The notes under the pieces are model-generated. The model did no database searches, had not been told where the DNA came from, and saw only the letters and a program-made list of their open reading frames with translations. Below, one piece after another: positions 32,911 through 53,180 of a stretch of 64,000 nt of DNA (within the stretch, counting starts at the first letter, position 1; each line of letters begins with the position of its first letter). This DNA is from Lingula anatina. Taxonomy: Eukaryota; Animalia; Brachiopoda. The DNA is taken from positions 2,170,001 through 2,234,000 of the forward strand of contig CM120641.1 in the NCBI GenBank assembly GCA_051362555.1. Direction: 5' to 3'. The translations under genes and the position numbers were made by a program.

Positions 32911-35900
32911 TTAGTCCTCGAAATCGGACAAATAGCCCTCTTCACCCCAGGCTTCTCGAGCACGCTTAGCTGTGTTTTGTACAGGTGTTGCTGGTTTCTT
33001 ACGGCGGCGACGATGATGTGCGGCGGTAGGCCGAGAACCTTTGGTCACCTTCCTTGTTTCATTGCCCTTTTCCTCATTTGTCCGTCGTGATGTCCTATTT
33101 TCTATAACAGTGGGGGCTGGTGTGACAGCTCGAGGTTTGACTGTCACGTGGTTGTTGCTGGCTGTAAGGCGCTGCTGAAGACGCTGTGTGGTCTTGTACG
33201 CGCGAGGTAAAACGAAGCCACTTGAGGCTTTGTCAGTGCGGCGGGCCGAGGCAGGGTTGCTCCCAAGTCCTGAATCTTGACTATACTGAGCGTTGCCCAA
33301 TGTGGGTGGAGTCTGGGCTGTGGCCCCCGATCTGGATATATAAAACGAATTTCTTTAACCCAACTGATTCTCTCTTTTAGTATTGCACATTGAACTTATA
33401 AATACTAAATATCATGTCATTTCACCACCAATTTTAAAAGATAAAACCATGATTAAGTAAAAAAAATGATAAAAGTTTAATTAGAATATTATCACGCCGT
33501 TCTCCATCTATAAACAATTAACCATAGTTATGTAAAAGAAATAAGACTCTTACCTGAAATGTTCAGATTGGACAACCCCACGGTTTAGTATTGATTGTGA
33601 ACAAGGTGGCGATAAAGCTATTTCAGAAACACTTGAATCAGAGTCTGTTCCACAAACAGATTTTGGGGTGCTGTTTTCCCTGGAAGCTGTGTTTCCGACG
33701 GCGATTTCTTCCCCAGGTTGGGATATGACGCTGGTAGCTCTATCATGGCCATTTTGGAAGTTGTTCTCTTCTTGGTGAACAGTTTCAATTTGGTTAGATT
33801 CCGATGAGACGCTGGAGTGTATTTCCTCTGAAATAGATGTTTCAGTAACTGGTTTGATGTCAGTCGAGAGGAACGTCTCAGAAAAACAACTGTATGGAGC
33901 GATGTCTTCAATAATACTAAGGTCGCTGTCAGACCCTGGCACCGCTTTCACAGTATTAACCAAGTGCGAGTCATCTGGTGTTAAAGGCGACTCGACACCA
34001 GTCTTCGTATAATGTTGGACGTTTTCACAGGATCCACAAATTTCCTCTGAGATGGAGGTTTCACTAGTGCTGATGTCTGGTCTTGTTACTGAGGTCTTAT
34101 TGCTGCTGGATAAAACAGAAATCTCAGACAAGCAGCTGAACGCAGCAAGGTCTTCAGGGATGGTTGAATCACTTCTGTCGCTAGAATTTCCACCCTTAGC
34201 TGCAACTGAATCTGGAAACATGGATAAGGCGGGTTTTACCCTGGATCCGTCGCCCGTATCCGCGTACCGATGTTCATGTACTTCCCCTATATCCTCTGGG
34301 ATAGAGATGTCACTTGTCCTAATATCGGGTCTTATATTTGGTGCTTTGTTCTGGTCCACCTGTATTTCCCCGATTTCCTCTGGAATAGAGGTATCACTTG
34401 GGCTTATGTCGGGTATTGCTGCTGGTGCTTTATTGGTATCCGACCCACGAGAATCAGATGAACAGCTGAAGGAATCAAGATCCTCGGGGATACTTAATTC
34501 ACTTTTGTCGCTGTCGGATCCTTGTTCAGCTTCAAGTGAATCAGGCGACTGTTGCACAGTAGGTACTATTATGGACACGACTCTTGTTTCATTGGCCTGA
34601 TGTACGTGTGTGTCCACTTCCCCGATTACCTCTACAATAGAGGTGTCACTGCTGCTGATATCGGGTCTTAGTTTTGGTGCTTTGTTGATATCTGACATAG
34701 GAGAGTCTTCAGATGGACAGCTGAAGGCGACAAGAACCTCTTTGATGCTGATATCAGTTTCGTCGCTGTTTGTTTCCTGCTCAGCCACAACTGGAGCAGG
34801 CGACTTTGATGCAGATGGTGCAACTGATGCAATTGGTGTTCCGTGATTCTCGCTTCTGATTTCTTCAAAGAAAGTGTTCCCACTTGAGTCAATTTCCTGC
34901 CCAGCTTTAGGTGCGTTGTCGGTATTTGGTCTAAGAGAGTCATCTGAGGGGCGGCGGAAGGGAACAATTTCGCCCAAAATGACTTTGTTTTCAAAGACAG
35001 CGTGCCCACTTGAGTCAATTCCCTGTCCTTCTTTAGGCGTGTTGTCGGTATTTGGTCCAAGAGAGTCGTCAGATGGGCAGCGGAAGGGAAGAATTTCGTC
35101 AAAAATTATATCGCCTTCAAAGACAGTGTGCTCACTTGAGTCAATTCCTTGCCCTGCTGCAGGTGCGTTGTCGATACTTGGTCCAATAGAATCATTAGAT
35201 GGGCAGCGGATGGGAACAATTTGAAAGCTTGAGTCAAGTTCTTGCCCTACTGCGGGTGCGTTGTCGGTATTTTGTGTAAGAGAGTCGTCAGACGGGCAAT
35301 GGAAGAGAAATTTTTTGTCAAAAATGACTTCTTCAAAGAAAGTGTTCCCGCTTGAGTCAAATTCGTGTCCTGCTTTAGCAGCCGTGTCGGTATTTGGTCG
35401 AGGAGAATCATCAAATGGATATTTGAAGGGAACGCTTTCGTCATGTTTATCCTTGTTGGATCTAGGTTTAGCTGAATCAGGCAACTTTGATGCAATCGGT
35501 GTTCCGAGTGAGACCTCTTTCTTATTCTGATACTCGCTTCTGATTCCTTCAAAGACATTATTCCCACTTGAGTCAATTCCCTGCCCTGTTTTAGGTGCGT
35601 TGTCGGAATTTGGTCTAAGAGAGTCATCTGAGGGGCGGCGGAAGGGAACAATTTCGCCCAAAATGACGTTGTCTTCGAAGGTAGCGTTCCCACTTGAGTC
35701 AATTCCCTGTCCTACTTTAGGCGTGTTGTCGGTATTTGGTCCAAGAGAGTCGTCAGATGGGCAGTGGAAGGGAACAATTGTGTCAAGAGTGACTTCCATA
35801 TCAAAGAAAGTGTTCCCACTAGAGTCATACCCATGCCCTGCTTTAGCAGCGTTGTCGGTATTTGGTCCAGGAGAATCATTTAATGGATATTTGAAGGGAA

Positions 35901-38567
35901 CATTTTTGTCAATAACGTTTTCGTCACATTTATCCATGTTGGATCTAGGTTTAGCTGAATCAAGCGACTTTGATGCAATCGGTGTTCCGAGCGCGAACTC
36001 TTTCTCATTCTGATGCTCGCTTCTGATTCCTTCAAAGATAGTCTTCCCACTTGAGTCAATGCCCTGTCCTGCTGCAGGTGCGTTATCAGTATTTGGTCCA
36101 AGAGAGTCGTCAGATGGACAGCGGAAGGGAACAATTTCGTCAAAAACGATTTTCCCTTCAGAGGCAGTGTTCCCACTTGAGTCAATCCCCTGCGCAGCTC
36201 TAGGTGTGTTGTCAGAGTTTGGTCCAAGAGAGTCGTCAGATGGACAGCGGAAGGGAACAATTTCGCCCAAAATGACGTTGTCGTCGAAGGCAATGTTCCC
36301 ACTTGAGTCAATTCCCTGTCCTACTTTAGGTGTGTTATCGGAATTTGGTCCAAGAGAGTCGTCAGATGGGCAGCGGAAGGGAACAATTTCGTCCAAAATT
36401 ATTTCCCCTTCAAAGACAGTGTGCTCAATTGAGTCAATTTCCTGCCCTGCTGCAGGTGCGTTGTCGGTATTTGGTCCAAGAGAGTCGTCAGATGGGCAGC
36501 GGAAGGGAACAACCTTGTCAAGAATGACTTCCATATCAAAGACAGTGTTCCCACCTGAGTCAATTCCCTGTCCTGATTTACGTGCGTTGTCGGTATTTGG
36601 TCCAAGAGAGTCGTCAGATGGGCAGCGGAAGGGAATGATTTCGTCAAAAATCACTCCGTTGTGTTTATCCATGCTGGATCCAGGTTCAGCTAAATGGGGA
36701 GATGGTGCATCTTTCTCCTCGCCCCATACCTCCAAGATGGAGGTTGCACTTGAGCTGATGTAAGCACGGGCCTTAGGTGTATCGCTGATGTATGACAGGA
36801 CAGAGACGTCGCTCGGAGAGCTGTAGGCTGCCGGGTCCTCACGGATAATGTCGTCGCTTGCGCCGCTGTTTTGTCTCATGCACCCAGGTTCACTGAGAGT
36901 GGCACATGAAAGTGAGACTTCAGATGAAGAACCAGACACATCTACTTTGACGGGACCTGGTGTTTCATTAGATACAGCTGCCGGCAATGTGTCATCTTCC
37001 TCAGGGGTGTAAGGTGACACAAAGATCACGGTTGTTGGCTGTGGTTTCTCAGGAGTTTCTTCAAGTGAGCTGCTGTATTTGCTCTCAGTGCAGGCTCCTG
37101 AGGTGGTCTGGTGAACAGCTTGCACCTGTACCTCCACCATTTGCTTCATGTCTTCCTGTCCAATGAATGCGGGCAGTGACATATCTGAGGTACCGTGAAA
37201 AGCTGTAGTTATCTCGCTCATCCCGTCAGCCATAAAAGTGTCATCTAGTCCAATGTAAGATCCAGCGTCATCTGCCTTGGTTTCTGTAAAGGACACAGAC
37301 AAGGTGACTACTTCATCGGGACTGCCACTTGTTCCAAGGGAAACTGCTTTCTCGGTCTCTCTGGGCAGATTTGCGCTCGCTACAGTCTCGCTGGTGGTGT
37401 CTATGGTTTGTGTAGGGAACGCATTTCCCGGTGTTTCAGGTGTTCTAGAGGGAGGCGGTGGAGGGATAGCCTCACCCTCTGGGGTCTCACTTTGCTGGGT
37501 CCTAGGTTCTGGGGATAGTACTAGACCTGGGACGACTGCGGGCAAAGGATCAACCACAGCTACTCTATAACAATAAATAAAACCAATTTTCGAAAAGTCG
37601 AAAACGCCAACGTCTAGCAATTTTTACTAGGTCTATTCTTACACAGTTATTATTTAACAGTAAATGAGAATATTTTTTTAAAAAGTTAAAAGCGCCAGTA
37701 TGCAGCAATCCTAATTAGGCCTTGAATAGTTTATATTAGTTGTAGGTATAAAATAACTTATATTGTTTGTGCTTTTGAACTCTTTTTATAGGTGACGCCA
37801 GGTAGCTGACGTCGTTTTGATCATCCAGTCTTCGTTAAAAAAACATATCTGACAAAGCAAGTGAATAAGTTCTGGTATGCATGATAGGTTTAGCTTCCAA
37901 TGGAATGTAACTTTTTATTTACAGAGACAGATGATGCAAAAAATGGGCAGAAAAGATGTTGTAAATTATTTTTTAAAATCTGCATGCTTGGCTTATATCT
38001 TTTTTTAAAAAAAACTTACTTTACCATTTAATTTGTGCAGAAAGGGATATCATATAAACCCATTGTTTAAATAACAAAAAAAAAAAAAAAAAAAAAAAAA
38101 AAAACAAAGTCCCTGCCCACAAGCCAAGTGCCAAGTAACACAATAATACCTTAACATACTATACATGCGATCCCTACTCATTATTTCTAACTAAGATTAT
38201 TTGTTAAAGAAATTTAAACCTCTCCATTATAAGAGAGAAACAGGCCGCTGATTGAAGGAAGTTTTTGTATAACTTTTCATTTTCTTTCACTTAAGTGAGA
38301 CTAGATGATCATTGAATTGACGCTAGCTGTGGTTTGTTATATTTATGTAATACACAACTTTTCATAATTCGTAGGCATTGAGAGTAATGAGACAACGTAA
38401 TATGTGAATATGGAGTCTCTAGTAAGAGCAAAGGAAAGCAATACTTACTGTGTCAGTTTTTCATTGTTCTCGGTTACGGAGTCTGGTCTCCTGAACTCTA
38501 TAACTCGGGTCGAACCCGAAGAACAACAACTGACACTTCTCCAGGCTCTTCTTAGCCAGGAAGGCAT
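32911..38567 (-). CDS. Uncharacterised 1516-aa Ser/Asp/Glu/Pro-rich protein with 42-aa tandem repeats (3 exons)
   Basis: Exon 1 38567-38449 (MPSWLRRAWRSVSCCSSG..., CA|gtaagt), exon 2 37564-33554 (4011 nt, ttatag| ... AG|gtaaga), exon 3 33331-32911 (tccag|, ends ...AWGEEGYLSDFED*). Phases 2/2 join the three ORFs in frame (4551 nt). No recognisable globular domain. Confidence 0.8.
34860..36660 (-). repeat. Coding tandem repeat, 126-bp / 42-aa unit (~13 well-conserved copies, plus degenerate copies on both sides)
   Basis: Consensus IxFDEIVPFRCPSDDSLGPNTDNAPxxGQGIDSSGNTxFExx; DNA motif ccaagagagtcgtcagatgg recurs at 126-bp spacing (e.g. 36476, 36602); periodic ~36-aa insert (IRSE...GTPIAS) gives higher-order structure. 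Confidence 0.92.
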
Positions 38568-39864: not shown

Positions 39865-42086
39865 ATGACGGGATTATTTTGTCTTACAATCTTGATCATT
39901 TCTGTTACCACAGGACAAGGAACACCAAGTTTTTTACAGCGTCCCTCTAACTGCGATAAAGATGTACGACTGGCGTATTCTGTTCTCAGCACACACGACG
40001 TTTATAACAGACTCCAGTGCTACTTGAAATGCCTTGATGAGCCGGCATGCCTCTCCTTCAACTTTGAAGATGTGTCAGAGAACAAGACTCGAGTTTGCGA
40101 GTTGAATTCGAAAATAGTGGACAAAAGAGGAAACAATTTGAAAACAAAAAAGGGCTTTGCTTACTACGAAAAGGTAATTTTTAATATCTGCTACATAAAA
40201 CATTATCTTCTAGTCGCAACAAACAGTATGATATTTCAGATAGCTAGTACATGTTTTGCTTTTCTGAATTTATGATGAAATGAAGTAGTGTTCTTAGAAA
40301 GTTTTCTTTGTTTTATTTTCAGACGAGTGGGTTTGATAATGGTATCCAAAGCTGTACACTAACTGAAACAAGTAAGTCACTTTAATCATGACCATGCTTT
40401 ATAATGCTCCAACATAAAGGACATCTTTTTTTATATACATATAGAGAGAAAACGGTATTCAAACGATCTTTTCAATCTCTCTTTGCGGCTGCTTATATTA
40501 TTCTATTAAATATGGAGGTTTTCTTTCATCTTTCAGCACATGAACATACCAGTATCTAGTTGCAGTTAAAAAATTCCCGACATGCTATTTTACAGATGAC
40601 AGTTCTGATTCTGACATGAATAAATTTTAAGATCTTAATGTCTGTGTCTTATAGTATACAATTGCACAAATCCAAATAAAATATAATATGATGCCATATT
40701 ATATAGCCCAAATAACGACCTGTTTCAATCTTCCAGCATATGTATACACAGATATACATCTCCAGTCTAGGAACTTCCCGACATATTACTTTTCATACGA
40801 CACCAGCGCTTCTGACAGAGCTAAAATCCTTCTGGACGACAGAAAGACTTTCAGAATTCTACGACCTGGATTGACGGGAGAGGAAGGAACTGTTTCCATC
40901 GAGTCCAACGATAAACCGGGTCACTTCTTTCGGTACCGCGCAGACACCAACGCCGTAGATCTCTGGGGAACCGATCCAGAATCTTACAGTCCAGAAACTT
41001 TCTACGAGGACGCTACCTTCAAAATTCGATATGGCACCTGGTTTAACGGGTATTTGGCGTTTGAGGCAGCGTATAATCCAGGGAAATATATTTCTCACGG
41101 CAGCCACCTTTTGTCTGTGAGTTCTTTTCAAGATACTGATGTCTACAAAAACAGCGTTTCTTTTAAAATCCGTAAGTATATTCTGATGACACGTAAACAA
41201 AATTAAGCCCTAAATCTGTATTTTGTTTTCGTTATTTCGTTTTATCAGCAACAAACTGGCGCAATGTCGACATAGGTGCTGGTTTTAGCATCTTGAACAT
41301 CTTTCCTATTCTTGCACAATTTGATGTTAGCCTCTAGGGAATTAAAGCAAGATTGAAGCAAATTGTGTTGGTGTATAGAGTGGTCTATCTTGGTAACTGT
41401 TTAATAAGGAACTGAAAAAAATGATGATCTTGAAACTCGTATACATGTACATGCGTCAGAACAGACTGACGTAAAGGTTCATTCGAGTAAAAATGACAGG
41501 ATTTGAAGAAAATGTTATATTTGGGTGTACCTGGAGGGTCTGAAGTTGCTTGCTTTGACTTCTATCCATGCTTTAAGATGTTATTTATTTATTTATTTTA
41601 TTTTATTTTATTTTATTTTATTTATTTATTTTTTTTTTGACAGTTCCAGCTCCAACTTATCTTCAGAAGGGTGTGAAAATTCAGTCCTATAACTTTCAGT
41701 CTTACTTCATGACCTACGACAGCAATACCAACTACTGCCATATTATCAACGGTGATTCCAAAACCTTCAACATTTGGAGTCCCGGTCTAACTGGAGTGGC
41801 GGGAACGGTGTCCATCGAATCTGTTGACAAGCCTCATTGGTTCTTTCGGTACAAGATCTCTAACTCGGCCTATACCAATCTTGAATACCGACCATCCCCA
41901 GCACAAGGCAGTTCGAATTTTGATGAGGAGGCGACCTTTATCATCAGGCAGGATATTTTATACACCGGATGGTTTGCTCTGGAAGCTTCTACGATGCCCA
42001 ACTACTACCTTCGCCACACTGGATATCGCATGTACCTACACCAACATATTCAAACAAGTCCTGATGCTGCCTTCCGTTTTGTTTAG
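39865..42086 (+). CDS. Secreted PAN/apple + 2x AbfB(CBM42)-like beta-trefoil protein, copy A (411 aa)
   Basis: Exons 39865-40173, 40323-40371, 40737-41171, 41644-42086; hydrophobic signal peptide MTGLFCLTILIISVTTG; PAN pattern CYLKCLDEPACLSFNF...CELN; AbfB-type repeats (LQSRNFPTYYF / VSIESNDKPGHFFR / DATF / FEAAYNPGKYISH). TATA-like TATAAAT at ~39785. Confidence 0.85.
40537..40630 (+). pseudogene. Decayed duplicate of exon-3 start inside intron 2 of copy A
   Basis: tttcag|cacatgaacataccagtatcTAGttgcag...gacagttctgattctgac; homologous to the copy C exon-3 start, with an in-frame stop and a frameshift. Confidence 0.7.
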
Positions 42087-44897
42087 CCACGGCTGTGTTT
42101 CAAAGCTATAGCTATACGTTCTGAGACAAGGGCCCAACATTGCAGTTAACTGTTACGTAAAGAGATCGTAAACGCTCTACATACATTTTACAAGAAGGTA
42201 ATGAATGAACGGGCCCATCCGGCCTTTAGAAAGAGATTTAGGGTGATCTTTTAAAGGAAACCGACTCTTTCCCTGCTCGTTTTGCTAAAAACATTATCTT
42301 TTAATTGCTGCATGCCGCATACCCGTGCTTTACTTTATACCAATGAATATTTAAAATTTTCCTTTGTCGTTTATAAAATTATCTTATTCTGAGCAGTATT
42401 GCAGATTAACGGATGGCCTTGGTCCCCCGGAAACCGTCTAGTTTTAATGGATCGAAAACTGTAATGTAAAACTAAAATGTAAATACATGTGAAAGTAACT
42501 TTTGTAAAAAATTCTCGTTCTTGTAAATGTTGATATCACAGAAGCCGCCAGTTCCCCTCTGTAAAAGTGAAATCGAAATTAACCGATCGAAAGCCTCCAT
42601 CGACTGACAAGGGATGTGACGCACAAAACATCTTTTCTTAATTGACATGTGTTTAGAAAAAAAAACATTTCGTATAGTTTAACTATTCTTTAATGTTAAT
42701 GCCGACGCCGGTGAAGGCGCCAATTTTCGCTCGGAAAATGAAATCGGAGCTTGTTGATCGAAAGCAACTGTCTGTCAGAGACCTTTAGTGGATACAGCAC
42801 AACAGTCCTACCTTATATCCATTATATACATGTACATGCATTTATGGATGTTTTGTTAATACGTGTATAAAAACGAGACACTGTATTGTATTGTATATTT
42901 GTTTTCGTTAAAGTAATTTTAAGCAACTCGATAAATGAAAACTATTTCCACATTGTTACAGAATATTATTTCACATTATGTAGTCTTTTAATTTATTTAA
43001 TTCATTAATTGTAACCATAAAACTGCATTAAATGGATCACAGCACAATTTGCAATCGCATTTTTCTTTCTTTCGTTATTTCACTAAGCAGTTTGTAGACC
43101 TTTATGGTCCCATTCAGAATAGATGATCCGAGTACTAACTGGTCCGCGGACTAAATATGGCCGAGCACGCTTCAAAACGGATGCTGCTGATTACTAATGG
43201 TCTCCCCGCCTCCGCGCAGTCGCTGCAATTCATATTTTGAAGAGGAATTTCACCACATTTGCAGAGATGGAGCAAATGAAAATTTTTTTATCATCATTAC
43301 TTTTGAGAAATTTTGGATGATCGTTGCATGACATAATTTTTTATATTTCCTGGTTATATTTTTCTTATTAGCATTATTAGCATTTTTCTTATAGTGTACA
43401 GAAAGGACACCGACGGTTTTCTGACCTTGGGTGATATCCTTTCTCATATAGTATTTTCAACATTCTTTACATGTTTGCTTTATCAGAGCCAGCAGTCTTG
43501 CCATTTAAACGCAATCGTATCATTTTATGTTGTTAAGATACCTATAAATAAATCTAGGAAAAGCCTACCCTGCCGTACTCCGGTAGGAACATCACGTTTT
43601 ATTGTAGGAACATCACGTTTTATTGACCTAGTGTCTCAAGTGCTGCAATGAAGCAAAGAGATCGATGTCATTCTTTTGTTCCCTTCAACGATGTAAGACC
43701 ATGTTTGGGGACTGGAGTTGTGCGAGAGGATAGGACTATCGATTATGATGGGAAATAAATATGGATTTTTCAGTGAGAAGGGTAGAAGTCTCTATTTGAT
43801 CATCCGGGGCTCCGCGGTGACTTACACATAAACGTATACTGCTATGGGGTCATGTTCTGGGGTTCTAAATATAACTTTTTTTTGCTATAAACCATGCTTG
43901 ACTTGCGTTTACCTTACATAGACAGGGATGTGCACTATATCGCTCTCCCCCCCCCTACCAAATACAAAGGGCATGTCTGGCGAGGAACGCGTTCCCGTTG
44001 ATTACTTGAAATCCCAGAGCTATTTTATTACTTTTTTGTTCCAAAGTATGTGAATGCTATCAGTTAATACTTTTCTATGGAACCATAAATAACTGTTTTG
44101 ATAATGAAGATAAATTGTTCATTTATTCATTTAATTTGCACAATGAAATAACATGCAGCAATTTTTGCCAAATTTAAAGTTAATCTAAATTTAGACATTA
44201 CTTAAAATGGTCCTTAAAACTACAAACCATCAGTTATAGCAAGTTGGTAAAAGTAAAATCATAACACAAAAAGTTGAATTAGTTCGGCAGTTATAAAGCT
44301 CTAAGTGCAGGGATTCGATAGTTCTCTTTCCTTTTTCGATTGCCCAGCGCACCAAGTTTCTATTTGGACATTTTAAGATCAGTGAAAGCGTTGACAATTC
44401 AATTCTTACAGTTAACATTATCGTTTTACATGAGAAATGTTGCCAATTATTTTAATCGATACAATGTTCCTGCTATTTGTTCATTTTTTCGTCTTTTGTT
44501 TCACTCTGTTTGCTTGAACGTTTTCTGCCCGGCAAGCTATTGTTGAAAGTCAGCGGCTAAGTTGCAGAAGAGATACATCTGTTTCCAGTAATCCCAGTAA
44601 TCAGTTTCAGGAACAAACAACCAATAGTAAATATATAACAATGAAGAATGGGAGAAAACTTGTTTAATAATCAGTTTTGAAAAGTTGCTATTCAAACTGC
44701 AAATGCAAAGGAAAATATTGAACTTTCAGTGAAAAGGAAAATAACGATCAAGTTTCATTATTTCATTGTACCTAGGTATTTGCATTGATATAATTCTATT
44801 TGAGTGATACTGAAATGATATAAAATAGTTGACGAGCGGCTAAGTTTCAACATAAAGACCGAGAACCATAAACCTTGAGGACCAAAAACCGTGAATC

Positions 44898-46945
44898 ATG
44901 CCGGGATTATTTTGTCTTACAATCCTGACCATTTTGGTTACCACGGGGCAAGGAACACCAAGTTTTTTACAGCGTCCCTCTAACTGCGATAAAGATGTAC
45001 GACTGGCGTATTCCGTTCTCAGCACACACGGCGTTTATAACAGACTCCAGTGCTACTTGAAATGCCTTGATGAGCCGGTATGCTTGTCCTTCAACTTTGA
45101 AGATGTGTCAGAAAACAAGACTCGAGTATGCGAGTTGAATTCGAAAATAGTGGACAAAAGAGGAAACAATTTGAAAACAGAAAAGGGCTTTGCATACTAC
45201 GAAAAGGTAATTTGTGTTACATGAACATTTTCTACTCGTCTTATAAAAACAAAGTAATACATTTTGGGGCTGGTGCATGATTTTCTTTTCTAGATTTATA
45301 AAAGAAAACATTTGAATTGGGGGGTTTCGTCTGCATTCTGAAAACGAGTTCTTTGAAAGTTTTCTGTCTTATTTCCAGACGAATGGTTTTGATAATGGCA
45401 TCCAAAGATGTATACATCTTGAAACAAGTAAGTCATTTTAAATATCACTCAATTGTGATGCTTCCGACTGCTTTTTGATAGAGGGAGAAAACGCTATTAA
45501 AACTTTCAATGCTCATTTCGTAACTCTCTTCGCGACTGCTTATTTCGACTGTCTTTTTGCTTTTTCTGTTTTTATCTTTCAGCATATGTGTACACCAGAA
45601 TACAGTTACTGTCTAAAAACTACCCTACGTACTATTTGACATATGACAGCTCTGATTTGACGGAGCTAAAATCCTTCTGGACGACTTTGCCTTGTAATGT
45701 ACAATTGCATACAGCAAAATAAAATATAATAAGACACCACGTAATAAGCTATAACCCAAATAACGACCTGTTTTAATCTTCCAGCATATGTATACACAGA
45801 TATACAACTCCAGTCTAGGAACTTTCCGACATATTACTTTTCATACGATACCAGCGCTTCTGACAGAGCTAAAATCCTTCTGGACGACAGAAAGACTTTC
45901 AGACTCCTACGACCTGGGTTGACGGGAGAGGAAGGAACTGTTTCCATCGAGTCCAACGATAAACCGGGTCACTTCTTCCGGTATCGTGCAGACACCAACT
46001 CCGTAGATCTCTGGGGAACCGATCCAGAATCTTACAGTCCAGAAACTTTCTACGAGGACGCTACCTTCAAAATTCGATACGGAACTTGGTTTACCGGGTA
46101 TTTGGCGTTTGAGGCAGCGTATAATCCAGGGAAATATATTTCTCAGGGCAGCTACCTTTTGGCCGTGAGCTCTTTTCAAGATACTGATGTCTACAAAAGC
46201 AATGCTGCTTTTAAAATCCGTAAGTACATTCTATTCGGTCTATTAACACGTGAATGAAATTAAGTCCTAAAAATGCTGACTATTTGATAACTCTTCACAA
46301 AGAAATGGAAGAAATGATGATTTCGAAATTCGCATACTTCTTTTTGCGGCAGAATCGATTGATGTAAGGGTTCATGTGAGGAAAAGGGCAGAAACTGAAG
46401 AAAAATAAAACTTGATTGATTTGACTTTAATCCAAGTTGGTGTTTAGAAATATGTTTTTGCAGTTCCAGCTCCAACCTATCTTCACAAGGGCGTCAATAT
46501 CCAGTCCTATAACCTTCAGACTCACTTCATGTCTTACGACGGCAACAACTTCGTCTACCTTATCAACGGTGACACCAAAACCTTCAACATTTGGAGTCCC
46601 GGTCTTACCGGAGTGGCGGGAACGGTGTCCATCGAATCTGTTGACAAGCCTCATTGGTTCTTTCGGTACAAGATCTCTAACTCGGCCTATACCAATCTTG
46701 AGTACCGTCCAGCGCCAGCACAAGGCATTTCGAATTTTGATGAGGAGGCGACATTTATCATCAGGCAGGATATTCTACACACCGGATGGTTTGCTCTGGA
46801 AGCTTCTACGATGTCCAACTACTACCTTCGCCATACGAATTATCGTATATACTTAAATGAAAATGCCCAAACAACTGATGATGCTGCGTACCGTTTTGCT
46901 CCGTTCTTCGACATCGACACATCATTGCAGATATCTTTATCATAA
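44898..46945 (+). CDS. Secreted PAN/apple + 2x AbfB-like protein, copy B (424 aa)
   Basis: Exons 44898-45206, 45379-45427, 45785-46219, 46464-46945; first three exon sizes identical to copy A (309/49/435); open frame throughout; C-terminal extension APFFDIDTSLQISLS. Confidence 0.85.
45583..45685 (+). pseudogene. Decayed duplicate of exon-3 start inside intron 2 of copy B
   Basis: tttcag|CA TAT GTG TAC ACC AGA ATA CAG TTA CTG TCT AAA AAC TAC CCT ACG TAC TAT... then 1-nt frameshift and truncation after DD. Confidence 0.7.
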
Positions 46946-47164
46946 AGAGACCCTAAGGGCTTTGTATACATTTAACTACATGTACTATAAGAAGGTAATG
47001 TACATACTAATCCGGTCTATGAACGGATCAAATCCGGTCTATAAACGAGCCGGGCCGGTCTATAGAAAGTAAGGAGATTTTTTGGATGGTAATCTTGCCT
47101 TCTTGCACGGTACCTTTCTGCAAGATGTGAACACACCCGACAGAGCGTAATACTGTATATAGTT

Positions 47165-48909
47165 TCGATAGATCATTTCTAGATCTAAGAAGACATCATG
47201 CCTCCTTGACCCTATGCCGACAACTCTGCTCTCCCAGATTCTCCCTGCAATCATTGGTCTCATAACTCACATTGTAAACATTTGCTTTAAAACCGGGAAT
47301 TTTCCTGAATTGTTTAAGTCTGCAATTATCCGTCCACTACTGAAAAAGCCTAACCTAAATGCAGAACTCTTGCAAAATTATCGACCTGTATCTAACTTGT
47401 CATTTCTGTCTAAAGTGGTAGAGCGTGTGATCGCCACAAGATTGTTCAATCACTTAGATGCAAATAACTTGGTTGAGAAAATGCAGTGGGCATACAAGGT
47501 GAATCATAGCACCGAGTCAGCACTCCTTAGAATTAAAAATGATTTGCTATGTGCGGTCGACAGTCACTCCGCTGTGTTACTTGTTCTCTTGGCCCTATCG
47601 GCCGCATTTGATACTGTTGATCATCAGGTACTGCTGTCATTTTTGGAAGAAACTGTTGGGATAAAAGATACAGCACTTAATCTTTTCCGTTCTTACCTCA
47701 CAGGCAGATCACAACAAGTATTCGTGGACGGAGTTCTCTCTGAATTAGCTCAACTTGTCTTTGGTGTTCCACAAGGCAGTGTGTAAGGACCACTCATATT
47801 TTGTATTTATACTTTACCGCTTGGTGCAATCCTTCGTTTTCATGAGATTGGTTATCACATTTATGCTGATGACACTCAGCTTTACACATCCTGCAATATT
47901 AGAAACCCTGAATCATCAATTACTAAAATAGCCAACTGTATTTCTGATATAAGGGGGTGGATGATCAGAAACAAACTCAAGATCAACGATGAGAAAACTG
48001 AATTCCTAGTAATATCTCAACCACACAATAAGAACATTGCCCGCAGTCTTAGCATGTCAATAGGTGCCAGCGTGGTACAAGTCTCATCTCACGCCAAAAA
48101 TCTGGGAGTTTATTTTGACAGTACATTGTCCATGAACAGGCAAATTTCCAACGTATCCAAAACATGTATGTTCAATATTAGAAACGTTGGTTCCTTACGA
48201 AAACATTTAACCGACTCTTCTACAGCAACAGTTATACATGCCCTGGTTACATCGAGACTTGATTTCTGCAACTCCCTTCTTTATGGATCTTCAGAGGAAC
48301 AAATCAAACGGCTACAGCGTGTACAGAATATATCTGCTCGCCTACTAACCCGCATTCCAAAAGACAACCACATTACTCCTGTTTTAATGATGTTGCACTG
48401 GCTCCCTGTCCGAGCACGCATTTTATTCAAACTTTTAACATTTGCACATGCAGCATTTTATAAACTTGCACCTTCTTATTTAAATGAGCTTGTTTCACAC
48501 TACGTGCCATCAAGAAATCTCAGATCAGGTGATCACCTTCTTCTTAAGGTTTATAAGGCAAGATTAGTATCATACGGTGATAAAGCTTTTAAATTTGCAG
48601 CACCAAAAGAATGGAATATTTTACCCATCAGTCTTAGACAAATTGTGGACCCTGGACATTTTAAAAAGGAACTAAAAACCCACCTTTTTAAACAATATTA
48701 TCTTTAAATTCTTTAAAAAAAAACACTTCTTAAGAAAAACTGTTCTTAGTCATAGTTTTAAATTTCCCCTTTTTTATCCATTTTATATATCCATTCATCT
48801 TATAACCATTAGCAATATTTTTCTTTTAATTTGAATTTTATAATTTTTGTAAAGTCTACTGAACACATGTTGGATTTTAGACTATAAATAAATATTATTA
48901 TATTATTAT
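47165..48909 (+). mobile_element. 5'-truncated, inactivated non-LTR retrotransposon (L2/CR1 group LINE), RT region + 3'UTR + (ATT)n tail
   Basis: One frame 47214-48707 broken by a single TAA at 47784-47786 (GVPQGSV*GPL); RT motifs NYRPVSNLSFLSKVVE, LSAAFDTVDH (catalytic D to A in LLALS), YADDTQLY; C-terminal HITPVL..LHWLPV typical of L2-like elements; 3' hairpin agtcta/tagact, AATAAA 48887-48892 and (ATT)n tail. 5' boundary approximate. Confidence 0.92.
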
Positions 48910-49512
48910 GAGATATGTGTAATTTTCCTTAGTCGTTGCAGACTAACTGACGGACGACATTGGTCTCCAAGAAATTCTTCTATTTTAATCGATGAAAATT
49001 TGAGTAGTCTTTAACATTTTAGTGAATACCTGTGAAAGTAATTTTTGTACAAATTTCACATCCTTGTAAATACTGTTGTCACAGAAGCCGTCCCCTCGAT
49101 AAAAGTAAAATTGAAACCTGACGTGCTTGCAGAGTGAAAAACATCTTTCCTTTGGTATGAGTATTCTTTTATATGTATGAATGCTGACTCCAGTAAAAAC
49201 GCCCATTTTCGCATAATAATTCAATATAAACTTGCAATTGTTAGCCACCTTACGCAGACACCACAGTCCTCCTTACAAAAATATGTTAAAATAACCAGAC
49301 ACTATTTATTGTATTGCATTTTTTCGGAAAAGGACATTCTACTTTTTTTTAGCAACTCAGCTGAAATCTCCGCCAAGGAGTCGCATCGTCGTCAACTCAA
49401 ACATGGACGAATACCACGTTTTCTTATAGATATATTTCCTCCAAATTCCAGAATATTATTTGAATAGAAAATGTGTGAAGATCTAAATATGTGTAGAACA
49501 GGACCATCCGCA

Positions 49513-49514
<2 letters not shown>

Positions 49515-49547
<33 letters not shown>

Positions 49548-49571
49548 TGTGTGTGTGTGTGTGTGTGTGTG
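49515..49571. repeat. (GT)n microsatellite
   Basis: Directly visible. Confidence 0.9.
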
Positions 49572-49965
49572 TTTTGATCCTGATAATCACGTGTACAACT
49601 GATTTTATGTCTATATAAAATTGCTTAACAGTGGACAATGCCCCTGTCATTTATAATATTTTCTTTTGTATTTCGGCTATAATAAAAAAACACGGAATGG
49701 GTGCAATGGAGTGTGAATGAGCACATGTTTCAGTCTACGTACAAATAAAAGAAAAAATCTAAGAAATTACAAAAGTAATATCAAAATCTGTAAAAGAGAA
49801 GCACTGATTCTCTACATATTTATACCTTCAGCACAATGCAAACTGGCACCGTAAAGAAAAAGATTGGCCACTAACCATGTGATCAATGGATAAAACATAT
49901 GTCTTAAAGAGTTCAACAGTTATATAGATCTAAGTGCGGAGATTCGGTATAAACTACTTCTGTAA

Positions 49966-50148
49966 GGCCGCATTGACAACAGCAGACTAACTAGTTCGCA
50001 GATCAAATTTGGCTGACCCAATTGAATGCTTTGTGGGAAATCCCGAGGATAATGTATTCAGTGTCTGTTAGGAGATTAGACAGCAGCTTTTAAGTGGGTC
50101 GCCATATTAGATCCAAGGACTAGTTAGTCCGCTGTACTGAATGCGGCC
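49966..50148. mobile_element. MITE-like element (possibly PIF/Harbinger-derived)
   Basis: ~39-bp imperfect TIRs ggccgcattgacaacagcagactaactagt / actagttagtccgctgtactgaatgcggcc; flanks taa / aaa. Confidence 0.65.
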
Positions 50149-50809
50149 AAAGAAGCCTAAGACCACAGATCAAATAGGACCCACCCACTCGTAAGCTTGG
50201 CTGAAAGCTTGCCACATAATCTCCACTAGAAATCTAGTCAATGTTTATTAAGTGATGACTTGACAAGTTTGAAATGGCCATATTTGACTCACGGGCTAGT
50301 TAGTCCGGGGATCGACTGGTTATGAATGCTCTCTCACTTATCTTTCTTTTTTCGTTCGCTCGGCGCACCACGTATCAATCCTGGCATAATTTTTAAAGTC
50401 GTCGGTATAAGCATTGGCAATTCTAAAATATTGCAGTTTACACTATATCATTTGCATTTGGCTGCTCAATAATTCAACCCATATAATACAATATTCAAGC
50501 CATTTGCTATTTTATTTGTCCTTTGTTCTTCATTGTTTGCTTCATCTTGGACAGTGTAACAACCTACATCTAAAAGCCAGCAAGCACTTTACAGAGGAGC
50601 TACCTCAATTTCCGGTAAGCTCTTATGGGGTCGAAAAAACAAACAGGCCTCACCGATAGTAAATAAAATATAATAAAGAAATTAGAGAAAACTTGGTCTA
50701 AAATCAGTATATGAAAAGCTATTCAAACTGCAAAAGCGATAGAAAGCATTTTACCATTAGTAGATAATAACGCAAAAGGAAACTAGGATCAATTTTCATT
50801 AGTAACCAA

Positions 50810-51036
50810 GGGTTCATTCCCAGTGAAACTTTCGTTTTACGTAGATCGAACCAAACTAGATTCTCGCTGAATGCAATTAGATTGATAGATAAACACGGCT
50901 CCTCTTGTTTCCAACTTACTCGTATTACCACCAGGTTTTCTACATTTTGCTCAACGCCAGAAGGATGCGTGTTAATCTCATTCAGCAAGAGTTCCCGTGG
51001 ACTTGGATCGATCTACATTTCATTGGGAATGAGCCC
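50810..51036. mobile_element. MITE-like element in the promoter region of copy C
   Basis: TIRs gggttcattcccagtgaaa / tttcattgggaatgagccc plus inner gtagatcgaaccaa / ttggatcgatctac; flanks caa / taa; absent at homologous positions of copies A and B. Confidence 0.72.
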
Positions 51037-51146
51037 TAAAATAGAGCCCGGTAATTACTTAAAGGCTATCAAAAGAGTTTATGATCCACTTCGTTCCAAC
51101 ATAAAGAACGAGAACCATAAACCTCTAGGACTAAAAACCGTAAATC

Positions 51147-53180
51147 ATGACGGGTTCATTTTTTCTTACAATCTTGACCATTTTGGTTACCACAGGACAA
51201 GGAACACCAAGTTTTTTACAGCGTCCCTCTAACTGCGATAAAGATGTACGACTGGCGTATTCCGTTCTCAGCACACACAACGTTGATAACAGACTCCAGT
51301 GCTACTTGAAATGCCTTGATGATCCGGCATGCTTGTCCTTCAACTTTGAAGATGTGTCAGAAAACAAGACTCGACTTTGCGAGTTGAATTCGAAAATAGT
51401 GGACAAAAGAGGAAACAATTTGGAAACTAAAAGGGGCTTTGCATACTACGAAAAGGTAAATCCTGCTACATAAATCTTCATAATATCTTCTAGCCGTAAC
51501 AAAACAAAGTAATCTTTTATGTAGCTGGTATATACAAATTTCTCTCATCGAAATGGATAAATCTTTGAGGGTATGACAACCATATTGAGCAACCCTGTAT
51601 ATAAAAGCCGTTAAAGAATCTTGAGTTTTCGAGAGTTTTCGAGCACATATTGAAAATGTGTTCTGAGAAAGTTTTGTTTCATTTTCAGACGAACGGGTTT
51701 GATAAAGGCGTCCAAAGTTGTGCACTCACTGAAGCAAGTAAGTCATTCCAATTGTAACTGCTCTATGATGCTTCCAACGTAAGGGGCTTGTTTAGCGGGA
51801 GAAACGTAATTCACATAATCTATGCTCATTTCCACAATCTTTTGCGACTTCTTTTTACGACTATTTGTTAAATATGGGGGTTTCCTTTCTTTTTTCAGCA
51901 TATCCATACACCTGTATCCAGTTGCAGTCCAAAAACTACCCGACGTACTATTTTACATATGACAGCTCTGATTCTGACAGAGCTAAAATTCTTGAGGACG
52001 ACAGAAAGACCTTCCGAATCCTTCGACCTGGATTGACGGGAGAGGAAGGAACTGTTTCCATCGAGTCCAACGATAAACCGGGTCACTTCTTCCGGTACCG
52101 CGCAGACACCAATGCCGTACATCTCTGGGGAACCGATCCAGAATCTTACAGTCCAGAAACTTTCTACGAGGATGCTACCTTCAAAATTCGATATGGCACC
52201 TGGTTTGCCGGATATTTGGCGTTTGAGGCAGCGTATAATCCAGAGAAATATATTTCTCATGGGCACTTTCATTTGTCTGTGAGCTCTTTTCAAGATACTG
52301 ATGGCTACAAAAACAATGCTGCTTTTAAAATCCGTAAGTACATGGGTGAAATATAGCCCTAAAGCTGTTGAAATATTTTCGTTTTATCGGTAACAAATGT
52401 CGACGTAGGTGCTGGCTTTTGAATCTTGAACACCTTTACTTTTTCAATATTTGATCTCAGCTGCTATGGAAAGGCAGGAAAACAAGATTGAAGGGAATTG
52501 TTCAGGGTCTACTACTTGGTCACTGTTGAATAAGATATGTTTAATAAAATATTTAAGAGTTGACTTTGAAATCGGTTTAAATATTCGACAGTATAAATTG
52601 TAACGATTGATGTTAGGGCTCGTTTAGGGAAAATGACAGTATCAGAAAAAATGATTTTCTTGAGGTGAAAGGAAAACTTGATTGTTTTGACTTCAATTGA
52701 AGTTGGCTTTTTTGTAACTGTATTTTTACAGTTCCAGCTCCTACATGCACTTACCTTCAGAAGGGTGTGAAAATGCAGTCCTATAACCTTCAGACTTACT
52801 TCATGACGTACGACAGCAATACCAACTACTGCCACATTATCAACGGTGACACCAAAACCTTCAACATTTGGAGTCCCGGTCTAACCGGAGTGGCGGGAAC
52901 GGTGTCCATCGAATCTGCTGACAAGCCTCATTGGTTCTTTCGGTACAAGATCTCTAACTCGGCCTATACCAATCTTGAATACCGTCCAGCGCCAGCACAA
53001 GGAAGTTCAAATTTTGATGAGGAGGCGACCTTTATCATCAGGCAGGACATTTTACACGCCGGATGGTTTGCTCTGGAAGCTTCTACGATGTCCAACTACT
53101 ATCTTTATCACTCGGGATATCGAATCTACCTTAACCAAAATGTTCATACGTTGGATAGTGCTGCCTACCGTTTTGTTTAG
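51147..53180 (+). CDS. Secreted PAN/apple + 2x AbfB-like protein, copy C (413 aa)
   Basis: Exons 51147-51455, 51689-51737, 51899-52333, 52732-53180; GT-AG, phases match copies A/B; open frame. Confidence 0.85.

What the first reader, a model, noticed from the sequence alone, without database searches (positions are those of the whole stretch)
39865..53180. Tandem family of secreted PAN/apple + double AbfB(CBM42)-like beta-trefoil proteins: candidate new animal lectin system
Seen: three intact paralogs (411/424/413 aa) with identical 4-exon layout, one module per exon: signal peptide + PAN, a short Cys linker, trefoil 1, trefoil 2. There is no catalytic or transmembrane region. Established: AbfB/CBM42 trefoils are arabinofuranose-binding modules of fungal and bacterial arabinofuranosidases and are sparse in animals (otogelin-like proteins); PAN/apple modules mediate protein or carbohydrate binding. 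Inference: a non-enzymatic, multivalent secreted glycan binder, possibly recognising microbial, algal or dietary furanose glycans (innate immunity, mucus or symbiosis). The architecture is not one I recognise as a described family, and the trefoil may be of ancient horizontal origin and since intronised.
Basis: partly seen in the sequence, partly recalled or inferred. Interest (0 to 1): 0.78.

Follow-up and report, generated by a model that had tools for sequence, protein, structure and literature searches.

The report
Brachiopod lectin-like genes with retooled pockets
Three intact neighbouring genes, closest to uncharacterised genes of the lamp shell Lingula, each encode a likely secreted protein with an "apple" cap and two domains of a microbial sugar-binding family. 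Only 2 of their 18 sugar pockets keep the classic residues, so they likely act as mucus or surface-coat binders of something other than, or in addition to, the plant sugar arabinose.

Summary
There are three intact 4-exon paralogs (411/424/413 aa), each with one PAN domain and two AbfB (PF05270) domains. Trefoil 1 folds closest to CBM42 (Z 19-22; ricin and fascin types 17.7 or less). The nearest relatives are uncharacterised Lingula anatina RefSeq proteins with the same architecture.

- AbfB is not sparse in animals. Enzyme-free tandem AbfB proteins occur in hydrozoans, a tunicate and an annelid, and one was found in Hydra's secreted glue.
- The window proteins are poor candidates for a multivalent arabinofuranose binder: 2 of 18 subdomain sites keep the His/Tyr/Asp pocket.
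- Each beta subdomain has His replaced by Tyr and a 6-7-residue longer loop, yet it is the most constrained part (pN/pS 0.11). The gamma sites vary between copies (0.55).
- Trees place the trefoils among animal sequences. A Lingula-specific transfer from bacteria is unsupported but not rejected.
- RNA reads show spliced expression of paralogs, not of these three copies.

Best reading: a lineage-specific, exon-shuffled variant of an unnamed invertebrate family of secreted CBM42-like proteins, likely in mantle mucus, with retooled ligand sites. Binding is untested.

The parts
39865..40173 (+). Gene 1 exon 1: likely signal peptide + PAN/apple domain (5 of its 6 Cys)
40323..40371 (+). Gene 1 exon 2: carries C114, likely the closing Cys of the apple domain
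   Evidence: disulfide pairing inferred
40537..40660 (+). Dead partial duplicate of the start of exon 3 inside intron 2 of gene 1 (end approximate)
40737..41171 (+). Gene 1 exon 3: AbfB trefoil 1 (beta site His->Tyr, gamma site Asp->Ser)
   Evidence: 13 paralog RNA reads break at 40737
41644..42086 (+). Gene 1 exon 4: AbfB trefoil 2; gamma site keeps His389/Tyr392/Asp405; stop
44898..45206 (+). Gene 2 exon 1: likely signal peptide + PAN/apple
45379..45427 (+). Gene 2 exon 2 (sixth Cys)
45583..45685 (+). Dead partial duplicate of the start of exon 3 inside intron 2 of gene 2
45785..46219 (+). Gene 2 exon 3: AbfB trefoil 1 (gamma His->Gln, Asp->Asn)
   Evidence: loose RNA end at 45785
46464..46945 (+). 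Gene 2 exon 4: AbfB trefoil 2 with canonical H-x-N-Y...D gamma site, 13-aa longer tail; stop
47172..48707 (+). Non-LTR-type reverse transcriptase fragment with one in-frame stop, inserted in gene 2's 3' flank; not part of the family
   Evidence: RVT_1; flank homology to gene 1 resumes on both sides
51147..51455 (+). Gene 3 exon 1: likely signal peptide + PAN/apple
51689..51737 (+). Gene 3 exon 2 (sixth Cys)
51899..52333 (+). Gene 3 exon 3: AbfB trefoil 1
52732..53180 (+). Gene 3 exon 4: AbfB trefoil 2; gamma His and Tyr kept, Ser at the Asp column (Asp one residue earlier); stop

Best explanation
These three tandem genes encode PAN-capped double AbfB-trefoil proteins with no enzyme domain that are likely secreted into the mucus or surface coat of the brachiopod mantle and likely bind there through retooled sites: a nearly invariant beta face predicted to hold a fixed partner, and a variable gamma pocket predicted to bind sugars that differ between copies. 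Shown: gene structure, domains, trefoil-1 fold, pocket substitutions, the selection contrast, and spliced expression of paralogs. Inferred: secretion (hydrophobic N-terminus), tissue (a published, unmapped Lingula AbfB-like transcript), origin by exon shuffling of a PAN cap that Lingula also puts on C-type lectins, and any binding. The partner of the beta face may be a host mucus glycan or a protein; this is untested.
For: Domains and fold: pLDDT 92.8; four CBM42 entries at Z 19.4-21.6, next 17.7. Pockets: the arabinose-bound CBM42 uses His/Tyr/Asp (PMC12493170 passages). The beta His is Tyr in 12 of 12 distinct Lingula trefoils, but His in 17 of 21 domains of named other animals and 19 of 21 bacterial domains. 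The His-to-Asp span is 25-26 residues vs a median of 19. Selection: beta pN/pS 0.11 (95% 0.03-0.25) vs gamma 0.55 (0.34-0.89); 13 of 113 beta columns vary across 5 paralogs vs 73 of 180 alpha+gamma columns; 5 amino-acid-changing to 14 silent codons vs 52 to 34, Fisher p 0.01. Cap: the same PAN and Cys spacing heads Lingula PAN+C-type-lectin protein LOC106163219, and the nearest non-Lingula trefoil is fused to a C-type lectin in Owenia. Setting: Hydra LOC100202073, an AbfB-only hit of my search, is basal-disc enriched and was found by mass spectrometry in the secreted glue (PMC5080974 section 15). A Lingula gene with an AbfB best hit has FPKM 280 in mantle, 49 in lophophore and at most 1 elsewhere, and is listed with mucin-5B, FCGBP and zonadhesin-like genes (PMC4595640 Suppl. 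Table 19).
Against: No binding was measured. The mantle-high gene (id 27258) could not be mapped to this family. RNA reads laid on gene 1 were few (75 in 4 runs, 1 at 99% or more likeness) and their ends match paralogs elsewhere, so these three copies are not shown to be expressed. Beta conservation may partly reflect gene conversion, since silent divergence is also lower there (pS 0.11-0.13 vs 0.18-0.37), or a purely structural constraint. No region shows pN/pS above 1, so gamma variation may be relaxed selection, not diversification. Only three DNA copies were compared. Pocket calls rest on sequence alignment, not on model coordinates, and trefoil 2 and PAN were not folded with an alignment.
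Confidence: 0.45

Rival explanations
1. They are immune pattern-recognition lectins that bind microbial or algal furanose sugars (arabinofuranose, galactofuranose) as CBM42 does, and agglutinate or opsonise the target.
For: The trefoil-2 gamma site keeps His/Tyr/Asp in genes 1 and 2, with canonical H-x-N-Y in gene 2. Tandem expansion with variation concentrated at alpha and gamma sites. One further gamma variant is seen in 4 RNA reads (read by eye). Tandem immune-lectin expansions are common in lophotrochozoans (recalled).
Against: At most one canonical pocket per chain (2 of 18 sites), so cross-linking would need oligomers or the altered sites. No pN/pS above 1. No challenge data.
Confidence: 0.2
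2. The trefoils have given up sugar binding and serve as protein-protein scaffolds of the mantle or shell extracellular matrix, with the conserved beta face as the contact surface.
For: Loss of pocket residues at 16 of 18 sites with strong constraint on the altered beta subdomain. AbfB is also a module of the matrix protein otogelin (PMC4948705 passage).
Against: The gamma site of trefoil 2 keeps His+Asp in 5 of 6 distinct Lingula trefoil-2 domains. Term searches of two Lingula shell-proteome supplements found no AbfB shell protein: 0 hits in PMC13425148, and one hit in PMC4595640, in a mantle expression table.
Confidence: 0.2
3. The family is real, but these three copies are recent, mostly silent or redundant duplicates drifting toward loss, and the working copies lie elsewhere.
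For: RNA reads match paralogs like LOC106180613/LOC106180625 rather than genes 1-3. Dead exon fragments and a retroelement lie in the array.
Against: All 12 exons are intact, while introns have diverged to 70-80% and exons to 76-95%. pN/pS is well under 1 in the trefoils. Only 6-30% of each run was read, tissues are unknown, and the animals may be a different population.
Confidence: 0.15

Closest known systems
Lingula anatina LOC106154099, LOC106180613, LOC106180625 (RefSeq, uncharacterised)
   Same: PAN + AbfB architecture, 74-98% identical to the window proteins, same pocket substitutions
   Different: LOC106154099 is annotated with four trefoils (684 aa); signal peptides, linker and gamma sites differ; none has a described function
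CBM42 of microbial arabinofuranosidases (3KMV, 9NXH/9NXI, 3AKF, 1WD3)
   Same: Fold (TM about 0.8, rmsd 1.6-2.0, Z 19.4-21.6), Pfam AbfB, one near-canonical gamma pocket
   Different: No glycoside hydrolase partner; alpha and beta His replaced by Tyr; longer beta loop; tandem pair behind a PAN cap
Hydra basal-disc AbfB proteins (XP_002159690.1 / LOC100202073; PMC5080974)
   Same: Animal, signal-like N-terminus, tandem AbfB domains without a catalytic family, partly degenerate pockets; found in secreted glue
   Different: Four trefoils, no PAN; the paper calls it a glycosyl hydrolase; binding untested
Hydra PPOD cuticle agglutinins (PMC3531485)
   Same: Works-like model: secreted, two tandem beta-trefoils, surface coat; agglutination inhibited by sulfated glycans
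   Different: Fascin/FRG1-type trefoils with Trp sites, Hydra-specific, no PAN; no such Pfam hit here
Owenia fusiformis CAH1779436.1 (AbfB + C-type lectin) and CAH1799281.1 (PAN-like + AbfB, partial)
   Same: The first groups with the Lingula trefoils (88/95 and 94/85) and also lacks the beta His; the second joins PAN and AbfB
   Different: One trefoil each; both on long branches; the PAN score of 21.1 is just under the 21.4 cut-off; the second does not group with the Lingula domains

Membership tests
AbfB domain family (Pfam PF05270) | Profile match above the curated cut-off over most of the 137 positions | tested here: met
   6 of 6 trefoil exons, 43.1-59.1 bits vs 22.8
AbfB domain family (Pfam PF05270) | Beta-trefoil fold closest to solved CBM42 | tested here: met
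   Trefoil 1 of gene 1: pLDDT 92.8; Foldseek ranks 1-18 listed are CBM42/AbfB; VIA Z 19.4-21.6 vs 17.7 next. The model was built from an alignment of AbfB hits. Trefoil 2 was tested by sequence only
CBM42 as a functional arabinofuranose-binding module | His + aromatic + Asp pockets in about two of three subdomains | tested here: not met
   2 of 18 sites in the window; both beta and gamma intact in 0 of 12 Lingula domains vs 16 of 21 bacterial and 15 of 21 named animal domains
CBM42 as a functional arabinofuranose-binding module | Measured binding to arabinofuranose side chains | not testable with these tools
   Needs recombinant protein
PAN/apple domain (PF00024) | Profile match above cut-off | tested here: met
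   3 of 3, 30.8-34.2 bits vs 21.4
PAN/apple domain (PF00024) | Six Cys in the apple pattern forming three disulfides | tested here: inconclusive
   C30, 52, 56, 62, 78, 114 in all three; the C1-C6, C2-C5, C3-C4 pairing is recalled, and the whole-protein fold failed (pLDDT 31.8)
R-type (ricin B) or fascin/PPOD-type trefoil lectins | Pfam match to Ricin_B, Fascin or FRG1 | tested here: not met
   No such family at E up to 1 for the 6 trefoil exons; these folds score lower (HA33 17.7, fascin 15.3, SeviL 15.3)
GH43/GH54 arabinofuranosidases | Catalytic glycoside hydrolase domain | tested here: not met
   No GH family in exons 1, 3 or 4 or in the full-length relatives; exon 2 is only 16 codons
Secreted animal lectins | Signal peptide, no membrane anchor | tested here: inconclusive
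   Hydropathy only; no dedicated predictor available
Secreted animal lectins | Carbohydrate binding or agglutination | not testable with these tools
   Bench test needed
Lineage-specific horizontal transfer from bacteria | Nesting among bacterial sequences, absent from related animals | tested here: inconclusive
   The best trees separate 14 bacterial from 30 animal domains, but the AU test does not reject Lingula+bacteria (p 0.27, 0.20); no fungal or otogelin rows

The most novel reading that the evidence does not exclude
Invertebrates carry a large, unnamed class of secreted CBM42-like lectins, mislabelled as glycosidases, that work in mucus, glue and surface coats. Cnidarian, tunicate and annelid members keep two intact furanose-type pockets per trefoil. 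The Lingula PAN-capped members have evolved a new, conserved beta binding site plus a diversified gamma site, making them two-ligand bridges between host mucus and foreign glycans.
Probability: 0.3. Interest if true: 0.72.

Novelty: new variant of a known kind. Interest (0 to 1): 0.45.

Why it matters
I recall no animal CBM42-type domain with measured sugar binding, and the searches listed found none. Animals are not known to make arabinofuranose (recalled), so such a binder would point to recognition of algal, fungal or bacterial glycans, or to a change of ligand. This locus offers a compact test. Natural paralogs differ mainly at alpha and gamma sites and share a retooled beta site, and relatives with intact pockets (Clavelina, Clytia, Hydractinia) serve as positive controls. 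It also suggests that 'AbfB glycosidase' labels in invertebrate transcriptomes (Hydra glue, possibly Lingula mantle) refer to binding modules.

Tried and rejected
- No whole genome is held, so the copy number elsewhere in this genome is unknown.
- Single-sequence fold of the full-length relative P0003 failed (pLDDT 31.8) and was not used.
- The two-copy complex prediction gave no verdict.
- No RNA holder of the stretch was listed in the index; 8 of the 9 raw-read runs offered were laid instead.
- No splice joint within genes 1-3 was listed.
- Atlas search with the whole protein gave one weak ricin-type hit (0.83); with trefoil 2 alone AbfB clusters came first (0.96).
- PAN exon vs PDB: no real hit.
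- The genome-contig scan returned 1 locus. AbfB was found in 5 of 61 genomes of that phylum; these were used only as bacterial tree rows.
- Trees: L008 (long branch) and 161 unnamed rows were left out of the 44-row trees; the 206-row tree is weak at depth.
- Positive selection was looked for and not found (no region above 1).
- An IL-1-like cytokine reading was considered because of weak IL1/IL33 profile and fold hits. It was rejected because CBM42 scores higher, and the IL-1 origin paper has 0 AbfB mentions.
- Gerdol et al. 2018 on Lingula immunity (PMID 29278680) is not held and may mention these genes.
- Look-ups of earlier findings by sequence and by full word set were empty.
Full report
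OBSERVATION. The region holds three + strand genes: 39865-42086, 44898-46945 and 51147-53180. Each has four exons, canonical GT-AG introns and phases 0/1/1, and they splice to 411, 424 and 413 aa. Exon 1 matches PAN_1 above the cut-off in 3 of 3 genes; exons 3 and 4 match AbfB in 6 of 6. The N-terminus is the only strongly hydrophobic segment. The copies are 85-88% identical as proteins, with exons 76-95% and introns 70-80% identical, and homology extends into the flanks, as expected for tandem duplication. No further copy lies in the window. Exon 2 supplies a sixth Cys (C114) with the same spacing as in two other Lingula PAN proteins, so it is likely the end of the apple domain rather than a linker (pairing recalled). 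Genes 1 and 2 carry a dead partial copy of the start of exon 3 in intron 2, and a reverse-transcriptase fragment with a stop sits behind gene 2.

WHAT IT IS. The closest proteins are three uncharacterised Lingula anatina RefSeq entries with PAN and AbfB domains. Gene 1 differs from the first 390 residues of LOC106154099 at 8 positions, so a lingulid brachiopod is inferred. An alignment-based model of trefoil 1 is confident (pLDDT 92.8). Its best matches are CBM42 structures by Foldseek and VIA-align (Z 21.6, 21.5, 20.7, 19.4; rmsd 1.6-2.0; next entry 17.7; fascin 15.3). The alignment was made of AbfB hits, which favours that answer, but plain sequence searches of the PDB agree.

DISTRIBUTION. 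A full-library search with the 413-aa relative gave 454 proteins at E up to 0.001; the best 150 were listed. I scanned 149 of the 150 with Pfam (one was too long). PAN and AbfB occur together only in the query and in one partial Owenia protein, whose PAN score is just under the cut-off. Many hits look like single-exon gene calls, so architectures are under-sampled. Of 20 hits looked up by name, 11 were animal, 1 bacterial and 8 uninformative. The animal ones are AbfB-only tandem proteins of Clavelina, Clytia, Hydractinia (2) and Hydra (2); three Owenia proteins joining AbfB to PAN, a C-type lectin or kringles; and two Lingula PAN proteins, one with C-type lectin domains by Pfam. Two word-based profile searches added no other PAN+AbfB protein among 9 and 28 hits, which is weak evidence. 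So the trefoil is a widespread, shuffled invertebrate module, while PAN + two trefoils was found only in Lingula.

ORIGIN. In 44-row trees of named domains, the 14 bacterial rows form one side of a branch (97/87 and 98/92). The 12 Lingula domains group with the Owenia AbfB+C-type-lectin protein (88/95; 94/85), which has a long branch. The AU test does not reject Lingula plus bacteria (p 0.27, 0.20, and 0.18 with the Owenia row). Fungal, protist and otogelin rows are missing and bacterial sampling is narrow (Actinomycetota and one Maribacter protein). The simplest reading is vertical inheritance within animals; an older transfer into animal ancestors cannot be judged here.

POCKETS. In arabinose-bound CBM42 the beta and gamma pockets use His, Tyr and Asp, and Asp-to-Ala mutants bind less (PMC12493170, passages). 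I scored these columns in 257 distinct domains. The beta His is Tyr in 12 of 12 Lingula domains, against His in 17 of 21 domains from 9 named animal representatives, 19 of 21 bacterial and 130 of 180 unnamed domains. Both beta and gamma His+Asp are intact in 0 of 12, 15 of 21, 16 of 21 and 96 of 180. The alpha His is absent in 12 of 12 Lingula and 44 of 44 named-animal domains (isoforms included) and present in 12 of 21 bacterial ones. The beta His-to-Asp span is 25-26 residues in Lingula against a median of 19. In the window only the trefoil-2 gamma sites of genes 1 and 2 keep the full set (2 of 18 sites); gene 3 has its Asp one residue off. The proteins belong to the AbfB sequence family, but I do not file them as functional CBM42 modules.

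SELECTION. The altered beta subdomains are the most conserved part: 13 of 113 columns vary among five paralogs against 73 of 180 in alpha+gamma. pN/pS among the three window genes is 0.11 (0.03-0.25) for beta, 0.33 for alpha, 0.55 (0.34-0.89) for gamma and 0.48 for PAN. Silent divergence is also lower in beta, so gene conversion may contribute, but 14 silent to 5 amino-acid-changing codons against 34 to 52 (p 0.01) points to purifying selection. Nothing exceeds 1. A decayed site would not be expected to be this constrained, hence the inference of a retooled site.

EXPRESSION. Eight of nine offered RNA runs were laid, 6-30% of each. On gene 1, 75 reads from 4 runs fell almost only on exons 1, 3 and 4. 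In three of the four runs the first mates lay only on the - strand, as expected for a + strand RNA. Thirteen reads break exactly at the exon-3 acceptor, with an upstream end that translates to the exon-2 peptide of LOC106180625. This confirms the splice site for the family. Only 1 of the 75 reads was at least 99% alike and no joint was listed, so genes 1-3 themselves are not shown to be expressed. Luo et al. 2015 (PMC4595640; passages, supplement term search and supplement part 7) list a Lingula gene with best hit ABFB_EMENI at FPKM 280 in mantle, 49 in lophophore and at most 1 elsewhere, beside mucin-like genes. I could not map it to this family.

HOW IT LIKELY WORKS. Secreted through the signal peptide (inferred). 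The disulfide-closed PAN cap likely acts as an interaction module, as on Lingula PAN+C-type-lectin proteins (inferred). The conserved beta faces are predicted to bind a fixed partner in the mucus or coat, and the trefoil-2 gamma pocket is predicted to bind a sugar that may differ between copies. Two analogies support the setting. Hydra LOC100202073, a four-trefoil AbfB-only hit of my search, was detected in secreted glue (PMC5080974, passages and section 15). Hydra PPODs, double trefoils of another family, are cuticle agglutinins inhibited by sulfated glycans (PMC3531485, passages). Rivals: furanose-specific immune lectin (0.2), protein scaffold (0.2), redundant silent copies (0.15).

LITERATURE. 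Ten searches of the open-access library listed no paper describing a PAN+AbfB protein or sugar binding by an animal AbfB domain; most results were seen as listings only. Passages were also read in PMC9589958, PMC4948705, PMC13736523, PMC13425148 (plus a supplement term search), PMC2518083, PMC8878817 and PMC10744619. The Lingula immunity survey (PMID 29278680) is not held and could bear on novelty.

VERDICT. Real and undescribed in the papers searched, but a lineage-specific exon-shuffled variant of a broader invertebrate AbfB-only class, already present as uncharacterised database entries. The conserved, altered beta site is the most interesting feature. Interest 0.45.

Noticed in passing
P0005, P0008, P0009, P0020, P0011, P0030: AbfB proteins of Clavelina, Clytia, Hydractinia and Hydra (tandem, AbfB-only) and one Owenia kringle protein keep both canonical His/Asp pockets; they are better candidates for true animal furanose lectins than the window's proteins.
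   Followed up: partly
P0001 (Lingula LOC106154099): Annotated with PAN + four trefoils (T1, truncated T2, T1, T2); its first 390 residues are 98% like gene 1. It may be an internal duplication, or an assembly or annotation join.
   Followed up: partly
window 42011 (run X9): Four RNA reads leave gene 1 right at the trefoil-2 gamma site and, read by eye, encode a gamma variant not seen in genes 1-3 or P0001-P0004, suggesting another paralog or allele.
   Followed up: no
window 4492-28394 (+): Exons of a ZMIZ1-like gene (Zmiz1_N and zf-MIZ); an ordinary animal neighbour.
   Followed up: partly
window 33550-37623 (-): A 1357-codon open frame with no Pfam hit, acidic and Ser/Pro-rich, with arrays of 126-bp (42-aa) repeats; a further open piece at 32911-33354 may be the next exon.
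   Followed up: no
window 47172-48707 (+): Reverse-transcriptase fragment; RNA reads of other copies of this element cover it and differ at the in-frame stop.
   Followed up: partly
window 43110-43150, 49960-50150, 50296-50330: Short interspersed repeats that attract many partly matching RNA reads from other loci.
   Followed up: no
P0089, P0133 (Lingula LOC106165600, LOC106163219): They share the signal + PAN cap and Cys spacing, followed by C-type lectin domains (by Pfam in P0133; by eye only in P0089), which suggests a reusable cap exon on Lingula lectins.
   Followed up: partly
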